NCBI RefSeq assembly: GCF_000026545.1
Contig: NC_011603.1
Direction: 5' to 3' (one strand)
From: Escherichia coli O127:H6 str. E2348/69
GTDB lineage: Bacteria > Pseudomonadota > Gammaproteobacteria > Enterobacterales > Enterobacteriaceae
DNA length: 64,000 nucleotides
Shown: positions 51,401 through 57,400 of the stretch, piece by piece
Position numbering within the stretch: position 1 is the stretch's first letter
Layout: each line of letters begins with the position of its first letter
Program-made: the position numbers

Positions 51401-54400
51401 ATTGAACCTGCAGTAGAAGATGTGATTCGCCAGCAGTATAAAAATGTGGGTATTATCGCTACCGAGTTTACTATTAAAACGGGGTGTCACAAAGAGCTAA
51501 TAAAAAAATTGAACCCAACAATAAATATATTTGGAGAACCAAGCAAAAATCTTGCAATGTTAATTGAGGAAGGTAATCTTAATGCTCCTGCAATATTGAA
51601 TGATATCAAAAAACATGTTAACCATTTAATTTCCCTCCATCCAGTAAATGAAATTATTCTCGGCTGTACTCACTATCCAATTGTTCAGAATTTATTTGAA
51701 GCAGTTGCACCGGATATAAAATTTATTAATCCTGCACATGATCAGGCTATCTCTATTAAAAATCACTTGGGACAGCTAAATTTATTAAACTCCTCAAATA
51801 TAGGAACTTTGCAAATAAATACTAGTGGAAGTATGGAGATCTACAAAACGGTACTAGGGGAATTGAGCATTACGAAACCTCATACATTCAGTATCAGGCA
51901 GTTTTAAATTTATCCGGTGCACCGTAAAACCCCGTCCTTCTGAACTGCACCCCAAAAGTTGGACACCAACTGAGTAAGGTGCATTTTATGGGCAAACCCA
52001 GTTACATACTGGGTAGTGCATCCAATTAGTAGAACATGTGTTTTTCGATAAACGCTCCGATCACTTTTTCGTGGATCTCAACTGAGCGTGAGAAGCAGAT
52101 TGTTTTACGACCCAACCGCTTAATGCGGGTGCGTAGCGTCAGATTATTACGCTCAATGCATTGGGTGAATATTTTGCCGGTCAGATGCTTATTCTTCGGC
52201 ACCTCCCGGCCATAGCTGCCCCAGTCATCGCTGGTCAGCATGCCGATGTTGAAGGGTGTAAGCAGTGCCAGTAGCTCCCGGCACGTTTGATCGGTTCGGG
52301 GACCAAAAGTGTAGGCCAGTACACCGCCTGTTTTGGTGTTGTACGCGTACCAGATCCAGTGTTGCCGGGCTTTACTGCCAACGTAGCTCCATTGCTCATC
52401 AAGCTCGCAGATAAACGCCACATCAGCATGGGTAACAGGCGAAGAAGTTATTCGCTTTGGCGCGAGTTTTTTAAAGTCCGGATGACGGTGTTACTACCAA
52501 TTTTCAGTGTCCTGGCGGTATCGCGAACCCCGGCACCATTAAAGGCCATTTCAGTGATCAGCTCTTTCATACCCGGCTTACGTGCTTGATAAGTATAAGT
52601 GAGCTGAAACACACGGTGGCAGTCACGGCAGCGAAGTCTGTCACGGCCTTTAGGGTTCTGACCATGGCGGTAAACCTGAGCTGACTGACAACGGGGACAA
52701 TGAATATTAACTCTGGCCATGAGATAACCTCAAAAACCCGTATTATACATCAGATTCAACTAATTAGAGGCATCACCTATCCAGCATTATATAACATACT
52801 AACAATAACTAAATTATAATAATCACAACTTATAATCAAATAATAAACGCATAAAATCAACAATGATTTTTTCTGGTTATATTTATCTAAAAAACGGAAT
52901 ATTATGTAACCTATTATTTTCTAAGCGTAAATTTATTATGTGGTCAGACTAACAAACTTGCGTACCACCCGAAGAATATGCGAAAATTTAAGTATTCTTT
53001 CTTTTTTTATTTTTTCATTTTCTCTTTTCTTCTCTTTCCGGTTCTCTTCTTTTCTGGTTTTGGTTTTTTCCTTTTTATTTTTATTCTTTCTTCAGGGTTG
53101 TGCTAAAACACCAAAACATTTTTCACCACAAAAGCATCCAATCATCTTGCCAGACCAATCACCTTAACCGGATACACTGCCGGATATAATCCCACTAACA
53201 CCCAGCCACCCCGCACCATTCCTGATAACTACCGTATTCAGGAAGTTGAGCCCTACTCAATTGATGAAATGTTCATTGATTTGCGGGGGATAAATCATTG
53301 CATCTCTCCGGAGGCTTTTGGTCATCAGCTCAGGGAACAGGTAAAGAGCTGGACAGGACTCACCATGGGGGTGGGCATTGCGCCTACAAAAACGCTGGCT
53401 AAAAGTGCACAGTGGGCAACAAAGCAATGGCCACAGTTTTCCGGTGTGGTCGCGCTGACGGCAGAAAACCGTAATTGGATCTTGAAGCTACTGGGGCTGC
53501 AGCCAGTTGGTGAGGTCTGGGGAGTAGGACGCAGACTGACGGAAAAGCTGAATGCGCTGGGTATTAACACAGCACTGCAACTGGCGCAGGCTAACACGGC
53601 ATTCATCCGGAAAAACTTCAGCGTCATTCTTGAGCGTACGGTACGCGAACTCAACGGCGAGTCCAGCATATCCCTGGAAGAAGCACCACCGGCAAAACAG
53701 CAGATTGTCTGTAGTCGCAGTTTTGGTGAACGAATCACAGACAAAGATGCCATGCACCAGGCTGTTGTTCAGTATGCAGAGCGGGCCGCAGAGAAACTAC
53801 GTGGGGAGCGTCAGTATTGTCGGCAGGTGACGACATTTGTACGGACATCCCCCTTTGCAGTAAAAGAACCCTGTTACAGCAATGCCGCTGTGGAAAAGCT
53901 TTCATTGCCACACAGGACAGCCGGGGCATTATTGCCGCCGCATGCAGAGCCTTAAACCATGTCTGGCGTGAAGGGTACCGCTATATGAAGGCAGGAGTCA
54001 TGCTGGCTGATTTCGCACCATCGGGTATAGCGCAGCCGGGATTATTTGATGAAATCCAGCCCCGTAAAAACAGTGAAAAGTTAATGAAAACACTCGATGA
54101 ACTGAACCAGTCGGGAAAAGGGAAAGTGTGGTTTGCGGGGCGAGGAACCGCCCCTGAATGGCAAATGAAACGGGAAATGCTATCGCCTTCGTATACAACA
54201 CAATGGACTGAGATCCCCATTGCTTCATTCTGATATATCAGAATAATTTTTTCATTTTAAGACGCACATCATTCATTGCCTCCTGCACCGAATCAGTAGC
54301 AGAAGGAGGCATTTTTTCAACAGATTGCGAAGCACCGAGTTCAGTCAACACAGCTCTGATATCGGCCTGAGAAGGCTTCCATCCAGTCGTCTGACTGAGT

Positions 54401-57400
54401 AAGGTTACAACCTGATCTGCTGAAAACTCCTCGCTCAAAATGGCTGTCAGCAATACAGGCAGGCGAGGATCAAGTTGGTGTAACGCCATTCCAGAAATAA
54501 ATGCATTCCGGAACAGCTCACCACGCTCAGAACGCGGAACGGACTCTATCGCTTCCAAAGTTTGAAAGTCTGCAGCTTTTTCCGGATGCAGATAAAGTGT
54601 GTATTTTTTCCTTTTCCGTTCATCGTCCACAATATTACTCCTCTTTGAAAGCCGCGATAGCTTCAACCAGTGCTGTCTGTGGCGACTCCATCATCACTAC
54701 TTTTTGCCCAAGATGGTGCCATGCCGTTTTTATCGAATCATAGATCAACGGGGCCCCACCACCGACAACATAAACACGATTCACATGATGGAAATCACCG
54801 AGCTCATTGACTACTTGCTCCCCCAAACTGGCAATAGCCCCCTCAATGGTATTAAGGACCAGATCAGTTTTTGTTTCGTCATTTATAACCTGCCGAACAA
54901 AGTCCGGGTCATTACGACGTTTAATCAATTCATCTGCAACGAGGAAACTGGTATCACTGGATGCCATGCGCAATGCACTCATTGCAGCTTTCGTAACTGA
55001 AGACACACCAATGCCAGAATTACCATGAATGGCACTTACAGAGTCAAATTGACCAACGATAACACCAACATCAAGCGTAGTGCCGCCAATATCAACTACC
55101 AGCGATTTTTCGAACTGACCAACTTTATCCACGACCAGACGAGAAAACACAGCTGGCAATGATTCAGGCATCACATCAACGTGTTCAATGGTGAAAACAT
55201 CGCCTTTATTAAGGCGAATCGGCCTCATTAAATTCTCAATTTTACGCTGAATGTTGAGTTCATTTTTTTGACACTCTTTCGTATAGAACTCACTGATAGG
55301 CAAAGTCACTGTCAATGATACAGGCTGAGGCGCTAATCCACTATTCAGTAAAGCGTGATGCACAGCTAACAGGTTAACCTCCGTATATTGATACTCAATA
55401 TGAGTCGTAAGAATAGATTGGTTGCTAACTTCATCATACGTGTATTTTTTACCATCCAGTTCATAGTTAAATGTCTGGCGAATTCCTAACCCGTCAACCT
55501 TCCATCCATGACGAAATGAGTTTTGCGACAACGACTTACAGATTTTCCCATTATCATTCCATGCCAACTTGATTGTTGTTGAACCATCATCGCAGTATAC
55601 GTTCATCTATAGCCCCTTAAATACTCAATCTGAGTAAATCACTGTTTCTAGTTGCAAGGTAATACTCAATTTGAGCACTATCATAGTTATGAAATCACAA
55701 AACACAAGTATTATTTATTACATCACATGACACACTTCATATTTCATACTTCATAAATATGAATACATATTGACACCTCAGGTTACCGTGTCAAAATATC
55801 ATCATACTTCACACATCACATTTATGAGGTTGCAATGATTACTGTAGTTGGTGGGAACAAAGGTGGTTCAGGGAAAACTACCATTGCATCAAACCTGGCT
55901 ATTGCTCTCGCAAATAAAGGAAGGGAAGTCTGCCTGTTAAACGGAGATCTACAACGAACAGCCGCAAAACATCATGCGGAACGAGAAGCTGCAGGACTGT
56001 TACCAGCAATAACCCTTGTTGAGAAATTTGATAACCTGACACAAACACTACAGGCTCTGAATGAAAAGTTCGATGATGTAATAGTGGATGTCGCAGGAAG
56101 AAACTCAAAGGAATTCATAACGAGTGGAGTTGTCGCACATCAAATAATTGCGCCACTACAGTGTTCTCAACCAGATCTGGATACTCTTACAGAACTAGAA
56201 CAACAGATAGACGCAATGCGTAACCTTAACCCGGAACTTAAGGTTTATTGTTTACAAAGTATGGCAACAACCAATCCGGTTTTGAGGGGAAATGAGAGAA
56301 AAGAATTCCTTGAATATCTTGAAGAATTCCCAACAATTCAAGTCCTTGATTCAGTTATTTGTTTCAGAAAAGTCTATCGCGATTGCATGAGCAACGGCAC
56401 CGGTGTAGTAGAAACGAACAATACAGCAGCCAAAGCAGAAATTGAACATTTAATGAATGAGGTATTTGGCCCATGGTGAAGAAACCCAGCCAGCAAGCAT
56501 TAAACAGAGCTGCAGTTACGGTAGAACAAGCAGAGGCTCTGGCTCAGCGCCTTGCGGATAAACCATACGGCGCGCCGGAAAAACCCGAACCAGAAAAACA
56601 ATGTCGGACGACAATCTCTCTTGGTGAAAGCATGCTTGTCACAATAGAAGATCTGGCATTGAGGAATAAACGCAATGGTAAAGATCCAAAAAATGTAAGT
56701 GCCATCGTCAGAGTAGCCCTTGAGCAATACTTAAAAACACTAACGTAATAATCAATAAGTTATTACTTATGAAATCACACTTGTGAATTCATACTGTTTA
56801 AGCACCCTTGCATACAAGAGATCACATATTGCAGTGGTCTCTTTTTTTACAGAATAAATCACAATTCATAATTATGATTTATGAATTATGCGTGTCTGTT
56901 TTTCAGCATTGTGACCGCATCGGACTCAGGCATCGAAAACTGCACCCGGTGCCGTGCAGCCACATCCAGCGCAAATACCTTCGTGTAGACCTCCGTTGAG
57001 CTGATGGACTTATGCCCCATCAGGCTCTGCAGGACCTTCAGTGGTATACCGGCATACAGCATGTGCATCGCATAGGAATGGCGGAACGTATGTGGCGTGA
57101 CCGGGACAGAGAACGTCACACCGTCAGTAGCAGCAGCGGCAACCGCCTCCCCAATCCAGGTCCTGACCGTTCTGTCCGTCACTTCCCAGATCCGCGCTTT
57201 CTCTGTCCTGCCTGTTCGTTTATTACGCCGTTCCAGAGGAATTTTCAGTGTTGCCACCATCGTCTGCAGCTGACTGACGTACCAGGAGTCGGAGAGCGGA
57301 ACCAGCCGGTGAGTCTGCTGTCCGGCAGGCGTTCTTCCTGCCGTCCTGGCGGCTTTTTCGGTCCGCTGCTTCAGAGTGGCCAGCTGCACAAACGGATACG

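What the first reader, a model, noticed from the sequence alone, without database searches (positions are those of the whole stretch)
54238..56880. Divergent double partition locus (actin-type parMR plus Walker-type parAB) sharing one control region
An actin-like ParM/ParR pair and a small deviant-Walker ParA with an RHH partner are transcribed divergently from a 228-bp AT-rich region with repeated motifs. A second repeat-rich region follows parB (56749-56880). This matches the two-system arrangement I recall for pB171, and implies two segregation machines with shared or cross-regulated centromeres on an F-like backbone.
Basis: partly seen in the sequence, partly recalled or inferred. Interest (0 to 1): 0.35.

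Follow-up and report, generated by a model that had tools for sequence, protein, structure and literature searches.

The report
Known pB171-type double plasmid partition locus
This stretch is the already well-studied "double par locus" of E. coli virulence plasmids: an actin-like and a Walker-ATPase DNA-segregation system back to back around a shared centromere/promoter region. It is intact here, on the EPEC plasmid pMAR2, and it is ordinary.

Summary
parR (54238-54630, -) and parM (54635-55606, -) diverge from parA (55835-56479, +) and parB (56473-56748, +) across a 228-bp region of about 31% G+C. A second repeat region (56749-56885) follows parB.

The window is 100% identical here to pMAR2 of EPEC E2348/69, an IncF plasmid. 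ParR is identical, 130/130, to the crystallised pB171 ParR (PDB 2JD3). ParA is the sequence a 2026 paper uses as pB171 ParA (UniProt Q0H055).

The intergenic region carries two copies of AATACTCAAT upstream of parM, matching the published ParR site. A hexamer, WTCAYA, occurs 11 times there and 9 times after parB. These are the two densest clusters in the 64-kb window, with 7-bp phasing, and they match the published dual ParB arrays parC1 and parC2.

The whole locus covers at least 80% of the query in 981 PLSDB plasmids. par1 and par2 almost always occur together.

One small new point: the distal 74 bp of parC2 also sits next to resD-like integrase genes in roughly 550 plasmids that lack par2.

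The parts
54238..54630 (-). parR (stbB) of par1: 130-aa ribbon-helix-helix centromere-binding adaptor. It starts at a GTG preceded by AAGAGGAG.
   Evidence: 130/130 identical to PDB 2JD3, pB171 ParR. Pfam Plasmid_stab_B 8.9e-30. RefSeq annotation uses the same coordinates. RBS.
54635..55606 (-). parM (stbA) of par1: 323-aa actin-like ATPase.
   Evidence: Pfam StbA_N 2.9e-64 plus ParM_N 4.3e-44. R1 ParM structures match at E=1.4e-75, 43% identity over 291 residues. The nucleotide-binding motifs DDGST, DIGGTTLD and VVGGGA are visible in the alignment.
55607..55834 (.). parC1: the 228-bp shared centromere and control region holding both promoters, the ParR sites and the ParB hexamer arrays.
   Evidence: G+C 0.31. 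11 exact WTCAYA hexamers against a window mean of 0.55, with 0/5000 shuffles reaching that count. TRF periods 7 and 28. The name parC1 comes from the literature.
55620..55634 (.). ParR-site repeat, copy proximal to parM: AATACTCAATCTGAG. It contains the half-palindrome ACTCA-N3-TGAGT.
   Evidence: Direct repeat family D3 and inverted repeat I4. [quoted passage not shown]
55661..55675 (.). ParR-site repeat, distal copy: AATACTCAATTTGAG. It lies just downstream of the candidate P1 -10 box, so it would cover the parMR transcription start.
   Evidence: The function is inferred.
55680..55707 (-). Candidate P1 (parMR) promoter: -35 TTGTGT (55707-55702), 16-nt spacer, -10 TATGAT (55685-55680). ParB-type hexamers at 55680, 55688, 55694 and 55701 overlap it.
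   Evidence: Relaxed sigma-70 scan scoring 8/12; hexamer map. This is a weak consensus match and an inference.
55736..55763 (.). Central ParB hexamer cluster: three TTCATA in 7-bp phase plus one inverted copy, just upstream of the P2 -35 box.
   Evidence: period 7, 3.1 copies.
55770..55797 (+). P2 (parAB) promoter: TTGACA, 16-nt spacer, TG-CAAAAT.
   Evidence: Best promoter match in 54100-57000, scoring 10/12 with an extended -10 TG.
55801..55820 (.). ParB hexamer cluster ATCATA-TTCACA-ATCACA in 7-bp phase, between the P2 -10 box and the parA start. It sits in operator position for autorepression.
55835..56479 (+). parA of par2: 214-aa type Ib deviant Walker-A ATPase with no N-terminal HTH domain.
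   Evidence: Motif KGGSGKTT. Pfam AAA_31, MipZ and CbiA; NCBIfam ParA_partition 6.7e-34, below its equivalog cut-off. The closest solved full-length relative is ParF of TP228. The exact sequence is UniRef Q0H055, 'pB171 ParA'.
56473..56748 (+). parB of par2: 91-aa protein with a flexible N-terminus and a C-terminal ribbon-helix-helix. Its start overlaps the parA stop (ATGGTGA).
   Evidence: Pfam RHH_1, residues 45-88, 21.7 bits against a cut-off of 20.5. Sources name it a CopG-family regulator. The literature says pB171 ParB recognises parC through an RHH motif.
56749..56885 (.). parC2: the downstream centromere. It has a proximal hexamer cluster (56768-56793, alternating orientation), a terminator-like hairpin (56816-56843 plus a T-run) and a distal convergent hexamer cluster (56858-56885). 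An IHF-consensus match lies at 56750-56762.
   Evidence: 9 exact hexamers, the second highest peak in the window. TRF periods 14 and 7. Hairpin. IHF match. The distal cluster is 85% similar to parC1 55738-55764, inverted. The literature describes dual arrays upstream and downstream of the operon.

Best explanation
This is the pB171-type double partition locus, par1 plus par2, carried here by the EPEC adherence-factor plasmid pMAR2. It holds two mechanistically different DNA-segregation machines, back to back.

par1 (type II). ParR dimers bind the two AATACTCAAT repeats in parC1. The ParR-parC1 complex caps ParM actin-like filaments. Filament growth by insertion at that cap pushes sister plasmids apart.

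par2 (type Ib). ParB ribbon-helix-helix dimers bind cooperatively to heptad-phased WTCAYA hexamers in parC1 and parC2. The ParB-parC complexes stimulate ATP hydrolysis by ParA bound to the nucleoid. Plasmids then follow the receding ParA and end up evenly spaced over the nucleoid.

Regulation. Each adaptor also represses its own promoter, P1 for parMR and P2 for parAB. Because the ParB hexamers overlap both promoters, ParB also represses the non-cognate parMR operon. This is the published cross-talk.

What is shown here: gene content, intactness, sequence identity to characterised proteins, repeat architecture and distribution. What is taken from the literature on pB171 or inferred: binding, repression and segregation.
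For: Identity
- 100% DNA identity to pMAR2 over 54100-57000.
- ParR is 130/130 identical to PDB 2JD3, pB171 ParR.
- ParA is UniRef Q0H055, used as pB171 ParA.

Families
- ParM domains at 1e-64 and 1e-44, and 43% identity to R1 ParM.
- Plasmid_stab_B for ParR, deviant Walker A for ParA, and RHH_1 above its gathering score for ParB.

cis sites
- Two 10-bp-core direct repeats upstream of parM, matching the published ParR site.
- 11 and 9 exact WTCAYA hexamers, the two top peaks in 64 kb, with 0/5000 shuffles reaching them.
- 7/14/28-bp periodicity.
- Arrays upstream and downstream of parAB, as published.
- A strong P2 promoter flanked by hexamer clusters.
- A candidate P1 overlapped by hexamers and followed by a ParR repeat.

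Distribution
- The whole locus is present (at least 80% coverage) in 981 PLSDB records, par1 in 975 and par2 in 988.
- A published census found 971 plasmids with a type-I RHH plus type-II combination.

Literature
- pB171 par2 has been studied experimentally with parC1 and parC2.
- Cross-regulation of par1 and par2 is cited.
- The same double locus is noted on pUTI89.
Against: Nothing contradicts it. The limits are these.

- No experiment was done on this particular copy.
- The pB171 record (AB024946 / NC_002142) is not in the collections. Identity to pB171 rests on ParR and ParA only.
- ParM and ParB were not compared directly with the pB171 proteins.
- The primary papers (Ebersbach & Gerdes 2001; Ringgaard et al. 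2007a, b) are not held. The details of cross-repression, and my recollection of 17 and 18 ParB repeats, rest on citing papers and memory.
- My strict motif gives 11 and 9 sites. Allowing one mismatch gives 23 and 11.
- The P1 promoter assignment is a weak consensus match.
Confidence: 0.95

Rival explanations
1. The architecture is that of the double par locus, but one of the two systems is a decayed or silent passenger in this plasmid. Only one machine would actually segregate pMAR2.
For: Partition operons on some related virulence plasmids are incomplete (pAA1070). Functional hierarchy between two co-resident systems has been reported elsewhere. No stability data exist for this copy.
Against: All four ORFs are full length with their catalytic motifs. 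ParR and ParA are identical to proteins that were characterised biochemically. Both promoter regions and all repeat arrays are intact. par1 and par2 co-occur in about 975-988 plasmids at 95-100% identity, which argues for selection on both.
Confidence: 0.04
2. The distal half of the 'second repeat-rich region' (56812-56885) is not part of the par2 centromere. It belongs to the neighbouring resD-like tyrosine recombinase gene, as its 3' terminator or a recombination site. The functional parC2 would then be only about 56749-56811.
For: This 74-bp segment is 88-96% conserved directly 3' of resD-like integrase genes in roughly 535-570 plasmids that lack parAB. 1523 records cover 56800-56900, against 988 with par2. 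The homology breakpoint is sharp, at 56811/56812. The segment contains an 11-7-11 palindrome of the kind tyrosine recombinases use.
Against: Convergent heptad-phased WTCAYA hexamers fully account for the palindrome. The cluster is 85% similar to the parC1 cluster at 55738-55764. In F, the ResD site rfsF lies upstream of ccdA, not after resD. F homology covers 58623 to 56901 only. The hairpin's T-run points in the parAB direction, so it terminates parAB rather than the integrase gene. Only one alternative left flank (cmi) was seen in five plasmids, so there is no sign of a recombination hot spot.
Confidence: 0.12
3. The small Walker ATPase and the CopG-like protein are not a partition pair. They would be a positioning or regulatory module of another kind: some records call the ATPase 'MipZ' and the small protein 'CopG family transcriptional regulator'.
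For: The database names vary: 'division plane positioning ATPase MipZ', 'AAA family ATPase', 'hypothetical protein'. The NCBIfam ParA_partition score of 117 is below the equivalog cut-off of 180.
Against: The exact ParA sequence is the one studied as pB171 ParA. Its segregation function has been imaged directly. The operon is flanked by iterated binding sites in type Ib centromere style. The closest full-length solved relatives are the partition ATPases ParF and ParA.
Confidence: 0.01

Closest known systems
Double par locus (par1 parMR + par2 parAB, with parC1 and parC2) of E. coli EPEC plasmid pB171 (Ebersbach & Gerdes 2001; Ringgaard et al. 2007)
   Same: The gene order and divergent orientation are the same. 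So are the shared ~200-bp parC1, the downstream parC2, the two ParR repeats and the ParB hexamer arrays. ParR is identical to the crystallised pB171 protein, and ParA is identical to the sequence used as pB171 ParA.
   Different: No difference was detected. The host plasmid is pMAR2 of strain E2348/69 rather than pB171 of strain B171. The pB171 DNA itself could not be fetched for a base-by-base comparison.
parMRC (stb) of plasmids R1 and R100, type II partition
   Same: Both have an actin-like ParM, an RHH ParR and a centromere that overlaps the promoter upstream of parM. ParM here is 43% identical to R1 ParM.
   Different: R1 parC has two sets of five 11-bp iterons (abstract of PMC2241845). 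Here there are only two 10-bp-core repeats. The centromere region is also shared with a second, unrelated system.
parFGH of TP228 and delta/omega of pSM19035, type Ib partition with RHH adaptors
   Same: Both have a small deviant Walker ATPase without an HTH domain, and a small RHH adaptor with a flexible N-terminus that also acts as repressor. Both centromeres are arrays of short degenerate repeats. ParF is the closest full-length solved relative of ParA.
   Different: ParB shows no detectable sequence similarity to ParG or omega. The repeat unit here is a hexamer in 7-bp phase. There are two separate arrays flanking the operon, and the system is coupled to a type II system.
Double partition modules of R27 (IncHI1) and of the Shigella plasmid pINV
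   Same: Each is a single plasmid carrying two partition systems of different types.
   Different: In those plasmids the two systems are not arranged divergently around one shared centromere and control region. This statement rests on established knowledge and was not tested here.

Membership tests
pB171-type double par locus | parMR and parAB are transcribed divergently from one intergenic region of about 200 bp (parC1). | tested here: met
   ORF map: parM starts at 55606 (-) and parA at 55835 (+), leaving a 228-bp gap. RefSeq annotation of the identical pMAR2 segment agrees.
pB171-type double par locus | The proteins are identical or near-identical to the characterised pB171 proteins. | tested here: met
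   ParR is 130/130 identical to PDB 2JD3. ParA is UniRef Q0H055, 'pB171 ParA'. ParM and ParB were not compared directly.
pB171-type double par locus | Two 10-bp direct repeats for ParR lie upstream of parM. | tested here: met
   AATACTCAAT occurs at 55620 and 55661, extending to 15 nt with 14/15 matching. The published description is quoted. Binding itself was not tested.
pB171-type double par locus | ParB-binding repeat arrays lie both upstream (parC1) and downstream (parC2) of parAB. | tested here: met
   11 and 9 exact WTCAYA hexamers, the two top peaks in the window, with 0/5000 shuffles reaching them. Periodicity of 7/14/28 bp. Literature.
pB171-type double par locus | ParR and ParB bind parC1, each autorepresses its operon, ParB cross-represses P1, and the locus stabilises a plasmid. 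| not testable with these tools
   This needs EMSA or footprinting, reporter fusions and stability assays. It is published for pB171 (cited).
Type II partition (ParM/ParR/parC) | An actin-fold ATPase of the ParM family. | tested here: met
   Pfam StbA_N 216 bits and ParM_N 151 bits, both far above their cut-offs. R1 ParM structures match at E=1.4e-75. The phosphate and adenosine motifs are conserved in that alignment.
Type II partition (ParM/ParR/parC) | A small RHH adaptor is encoded immediately downstream of parM. | tested here: met
   parR starts 4 nt after the parM stop. It is identical to the solved pB171 ParR, an RHH protein.
Type Ib partition (small ParA + RHH ParB) | A deviant Walker A motif (KGGxxGK[ST]) in an ATPase of about 200-220 aa that lacks an N-terminal HTH domain. 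| tested here: met
   214 aa, with KGGSGKTT at residues 9-16, so the motif begins almost at the N-terminus. Family hits. Full-length alignment to ParF.
Type Ib partition (small ParA + RHH ParB) | The adaptor has a ribbon-helix-helix DNA-binding domain. | tested here: met
   Pfam RHH_1 at residues 45-88, 21.7 bits against a gathering score of 20.5, E=1.9e-4. This is a marginal pass. The literature statement that pB171 ParB is RHH supports it. No structure was predicted.
NCBIfam NF041546 ParA_partition (equivalog) | A score at or above the curated cut-off of 180 bits. | tested here: not met
   117.2 bits. The protein is a ParA-superfamily partition ATPase but lies outside this particular equivalog model.

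The most novel reading that the evidence does not exclude
The distal 74 bp of parC2 (56812-56885) carries a terminator hairpin and four to five ParB-type hexamers. It survives next to resD-like integrase genes in roughly 550 ColBM-type and pO157/pO145-type plasmids that have no parAB. If ParB still binds it, these plasmids carry an orphan half-centromere. A co-resident pB171-type plasmid could then pair with them, destabilise them through partition incompatibility, or segregate them in trans.
Probability: 0.15. Interest if true: 0.35.

Novelty: already known. Interest (0 to 1): 0.08.

Why it matters
It matters little as a discovery. The double par locus of pB171 has been a model system since 2001 for ParA oscillation and equipositioning, ParR structure, ParB centromere pairing and regulatory cross-talk. 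Here it sits on the closely related EPEC plasmid pMAR2.

The check is still useful as annotation. In most database records ParA is labelled 'AAA family ATPase' or 'MipZ' and ParB 'hypothetical protein' or 'CopG regulator'. The cis sites parC1 and parC2 are not annotated at all.

The census shows that the two systems travel as one unit in about 980 sequenced enterobacterial plasmids, many carrying virulence or resistance genes. That is relevant to plasmid stability and incompatibility.

Tried and rejected
1. Fetching pB171 itself (AB024946, NC_002142) for a direct DNA comparison. It is not in any collection.

2. Reading the primary papers (PMC64986, JBC M609092200, PMC2775997). None is held. 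I used citing papers instead.

3. Testing whether the palindrome at 56854-56882 is an rfsF-like ResD site. Rejected.
- F's rfsF sites lie upstream of oriV-1 and ccdA.
- F homology with the window runs 58623 to 56901 and stops before the resD stop codon.
- The palindrome is simply convergent ParB-type hexamers and resembles parC1.

4. Testing whether the parC2 breakpoint is a module-switching hot spot. Five par2-less plasmids all had the same left neighbour, cmi, so there is no support.

5. An Rfam scan of 52000-59000 found no RNA family.

6. Sequence similarity of ParB to ParG or omega in the PDB: none at E<=1.

7. I considered a structure prediction for ParB and left it out. The Pfam pass plus the literature already settle the RHH question, and it would not change the verdict.

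
Full report
**What is there**

The ORF map of 52000-59000 and the sequence show four genes.
- On the minus strand: a 323-aa ORF (54635-55606), followed after 4 nt by a small ORF ending at 54238.
- On the plus strand: a 214-aa ORF (55835-56479), overlapped by 7 nt with a 91-aa ORF (56473-56748).

The gap between the two divergent start codons is exactly 228 bp (55607-55834), with G+C of about 0.31. The 137 bp between the parB stop and the stop codon of the next gene, a convergent tyrosine recombinase at 56886-57695, is also AT-rich.

The one refinement concerns parR. 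The real product is 130 aa, starting at the GTG at 54630 behind an AAGAGGAG ribosome-binding site. The 142-aa longest ORF is not the product.

**Protein identities**
- The 323-aa protein matches both Pfam ParM domains (StbA_N 2.9e-64, ParM_N 4.3e-44). It matches the solved R1 ParM structures at E=1.4e-75, with 43% identity over 291 residues. The nucleotide-binding motifs are conserved in that alignment.
- The small downstream protein matches Plasmid_stab_B (8.9e-30). It is 130/130 identical to PDB 2JD3, which the literature names as pB171 ParR, a ribbon-helix-helix protein.
- The 214-aa protein carries the deviant Walker A box KGGSGKTT at residues 9-16. It matches the ParA/MinD/MipZ superfamily models and aligns full-length to the partition ATPase ParF of TP228. 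It scores below the NCBIfam ParA_partition equivalog cut-off (117 against 180 bits).
- Its exact sequence is the UniRef100 entry Q0H055. A 2026 NAR paper lists that entry as 'pB171 ParA'.
- The 91-aa protein passes the Pfam RHH_1 gathering score narrowly (21.7 against 20.5 bits, residues 45-88). Several sources name it a CopG-family regulator. The literature states that pB171 ParB recognises parC through an RHH motif.

**The cis-acting sites**

In parC1, a 15-nt direct repeat, AATACTCAAT(C/T)TGAG, occurs at 55620 and 55661. [quoted passage not shown]

A second, unrelated motif is the hexamer WTCAYA.
- It occurs 11 times in parC1 and 9 times in 56749-56885, counting both strands.
- The window-wide mean is 0.55 per 228 bp. 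These are the two highest peaks in the entire 64-kb window, and the next peak has 5.
- None of 5000 composition-preserving shuffles reached the observed counts.
- The hexamers are phased at 7 bp. Tandem Repeats Finder independently reports periods of 7, 14 and 28 bp in both regions.

This matches the published picture of pB171 par2, with ParB-binding arrays both upstream (parC1) and downstream (parC2) of the operon.

The best sigma-70 match in the region is TTGACA-16-TG-CAAAAT at 55770-55797, pointing at parA. Hexamer clusters bracket it at 55736-55763 and 55801-55820.

A weaker candidate for the parMR promoter lies on the minus strand: TTGTGT-16-TATGAT, 55707-55680. ParB-type hexamers overlap it, and a ParR repeat follows it immediately. 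This gives a sequence-level rationale for the published cross-talk (cited), but the promoter assignment is an inference.

A hairpin with a T-run at 56816-56851 looks like the parAB terminator and lies inside parC2. One IHF-consensus match lies at 56750. From memory, IHF was reported as a host factor for par2. I could not verify where it binds.

**Origin and distribution**
- The segment 54100-57000 is 100% identical to pMAR2 of EPEC E2348/69, typed IncFIA/FIB/FIC, MOBF, MPF_F. The first 25 kb of the window, covering the tra genes, is also 100% identical to pMAR2/pMAR7. The F-like backbone is therefore confirmed.
- In PLSDB, the whole locus covers at least 80% of the query in 981 records, par1 alone in 975 and par2 alone in 988, all at 95-100% identity. 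The two systems travel together almost without exception.
- An independent published census found 971 plasmids with a type-I RHH plus type-II combination.
- The same double locus has been noted on pUTI89.

**How it works**

The steps below are taken from the literature on pB171 and on the two families. They were not shown here.

par1: ParR bound to its repeats in parC1 forms the complex that captures the ends of ParM filaments. Growth of the filaments pushes plasmid copies apart.

par2: ParB dimers coat the hexamer arrays of parC1 and parC2 and stimulate ParA-ATP bound to the nucleoid. The plasmids follow the retreating ParA and become evenly spaced.

Both adaptors double as repressors of their own operons. 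Because the sites are interleaved in one 228-bp region, the two systems also affect each other's expression.

**Comparison and novelty**

This is a member of the pB171 double par locus in every feature that can be tested in silico. The only untestable features are the biochemical ones, which have been published for the identical or near-identical proteins. It is already known, and a specialist would not be surprised.

**One side observation**

The homology between this locus and about 535-570 plasmids that lack parAB begins abruptly at 56812. It runs through the hairpin and the distal hexamer cluster into the integrase gene. In five such plasmids, of ColBM type and pO157/pO145 type, the left neighbour is always the colicin M immunity gene.

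I considered that this segment might be the recombinase's own site, rfsF-like. I rejected that for two reasons.
- F's rfsF lies upstream of ccdA, and F homology ends at 56901.
- The palindrome in the segment is just convergent ParB-type hexamers resembling those of parC1.

The more likely reading is that these plasmids retain a remnant of parC2. Whether ParB still binds it is untested.

Noticed in passing
window 56812-56885; loci L002 3501-3573 and L005-L008 around 3001-3089: The distal 74 bp of parC2 (hairpin plus convergent hexamers) is 88-96% conserved immediately 3' of resD-like integrase genes in roughly 535-570 plasmids that lack parAB. The breakpoint is sharp, at 56811/56812. In five inspected plasmids the left neighbour is always colicin M immunity (cmi). 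This may be an orphan remnant of the centromere.
   Followed up: partly
window 56886-58623: An F-like ccdA-ccdB-resD module lies on the minus strand: ccdA 58003-58221, ccdB 57696-58001, integrase 56886-57695. With the region upstream of ccdA, it is 92.8% identical to F nt 45938-47660. By homology with F, the rfsF/oriV-1-like sequence should lie at about 58222-58623. Homology to F stops 15 nt before the integrase stop codon.
   Followed up: partly
window 53269-54233: A umuC (DNA polymerase V subunit) remnant lies directly downstream of parR. It is split over two reading frames (53269-53955 and 53817-54233) and lacks about the first 100 codons. An AT-rich palindrome, TTCTGATATATCAGAA, at 54220-54235 sits between its stop codon and the parR stop codon.
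   Followed up: partly
window 52720-53110: A very AT-rich stretch (G+C 0.25-0.29) lies between an IS1-like element (insA/insB ORFs at 52026-52720) and the umuC remnant. It includes T-rich degenerate tandem repeats (TTTCT and related units, 52993-53059). Its function is unknown.
   Followed up: no
window 58935-61556: An 873-aa TrlF-family AAA-like ATPase (NCBIfam NF045780, 1.1e-161), with weaker similarity to the anti-phage protein Ppl. It is a probable defence gene next to the maintenance region.
   Followed up: no
window 56750-56762: A single exact match to the IHF consensus WATCAANNNNTTR (AATCAATAAGTTA) lies right after the parB stop codon. There is none in parC1. From memory, IHF has been reported as a host factor for pB171 par2. 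The site was not verified.
   Followed up: no
database records matching window 55835-56748: Annotation of this well-characterised system is inconsistent. ParA is labelled 'AAA family ATPase' or 'division plane positioning ATPase MipZ'. ParB is labelled 'hypothetical protein' or 'CopG family transcriptional regulator'. ParA also scores below the NCBIfam ParA_partition cut-off.
   Followed up: yes
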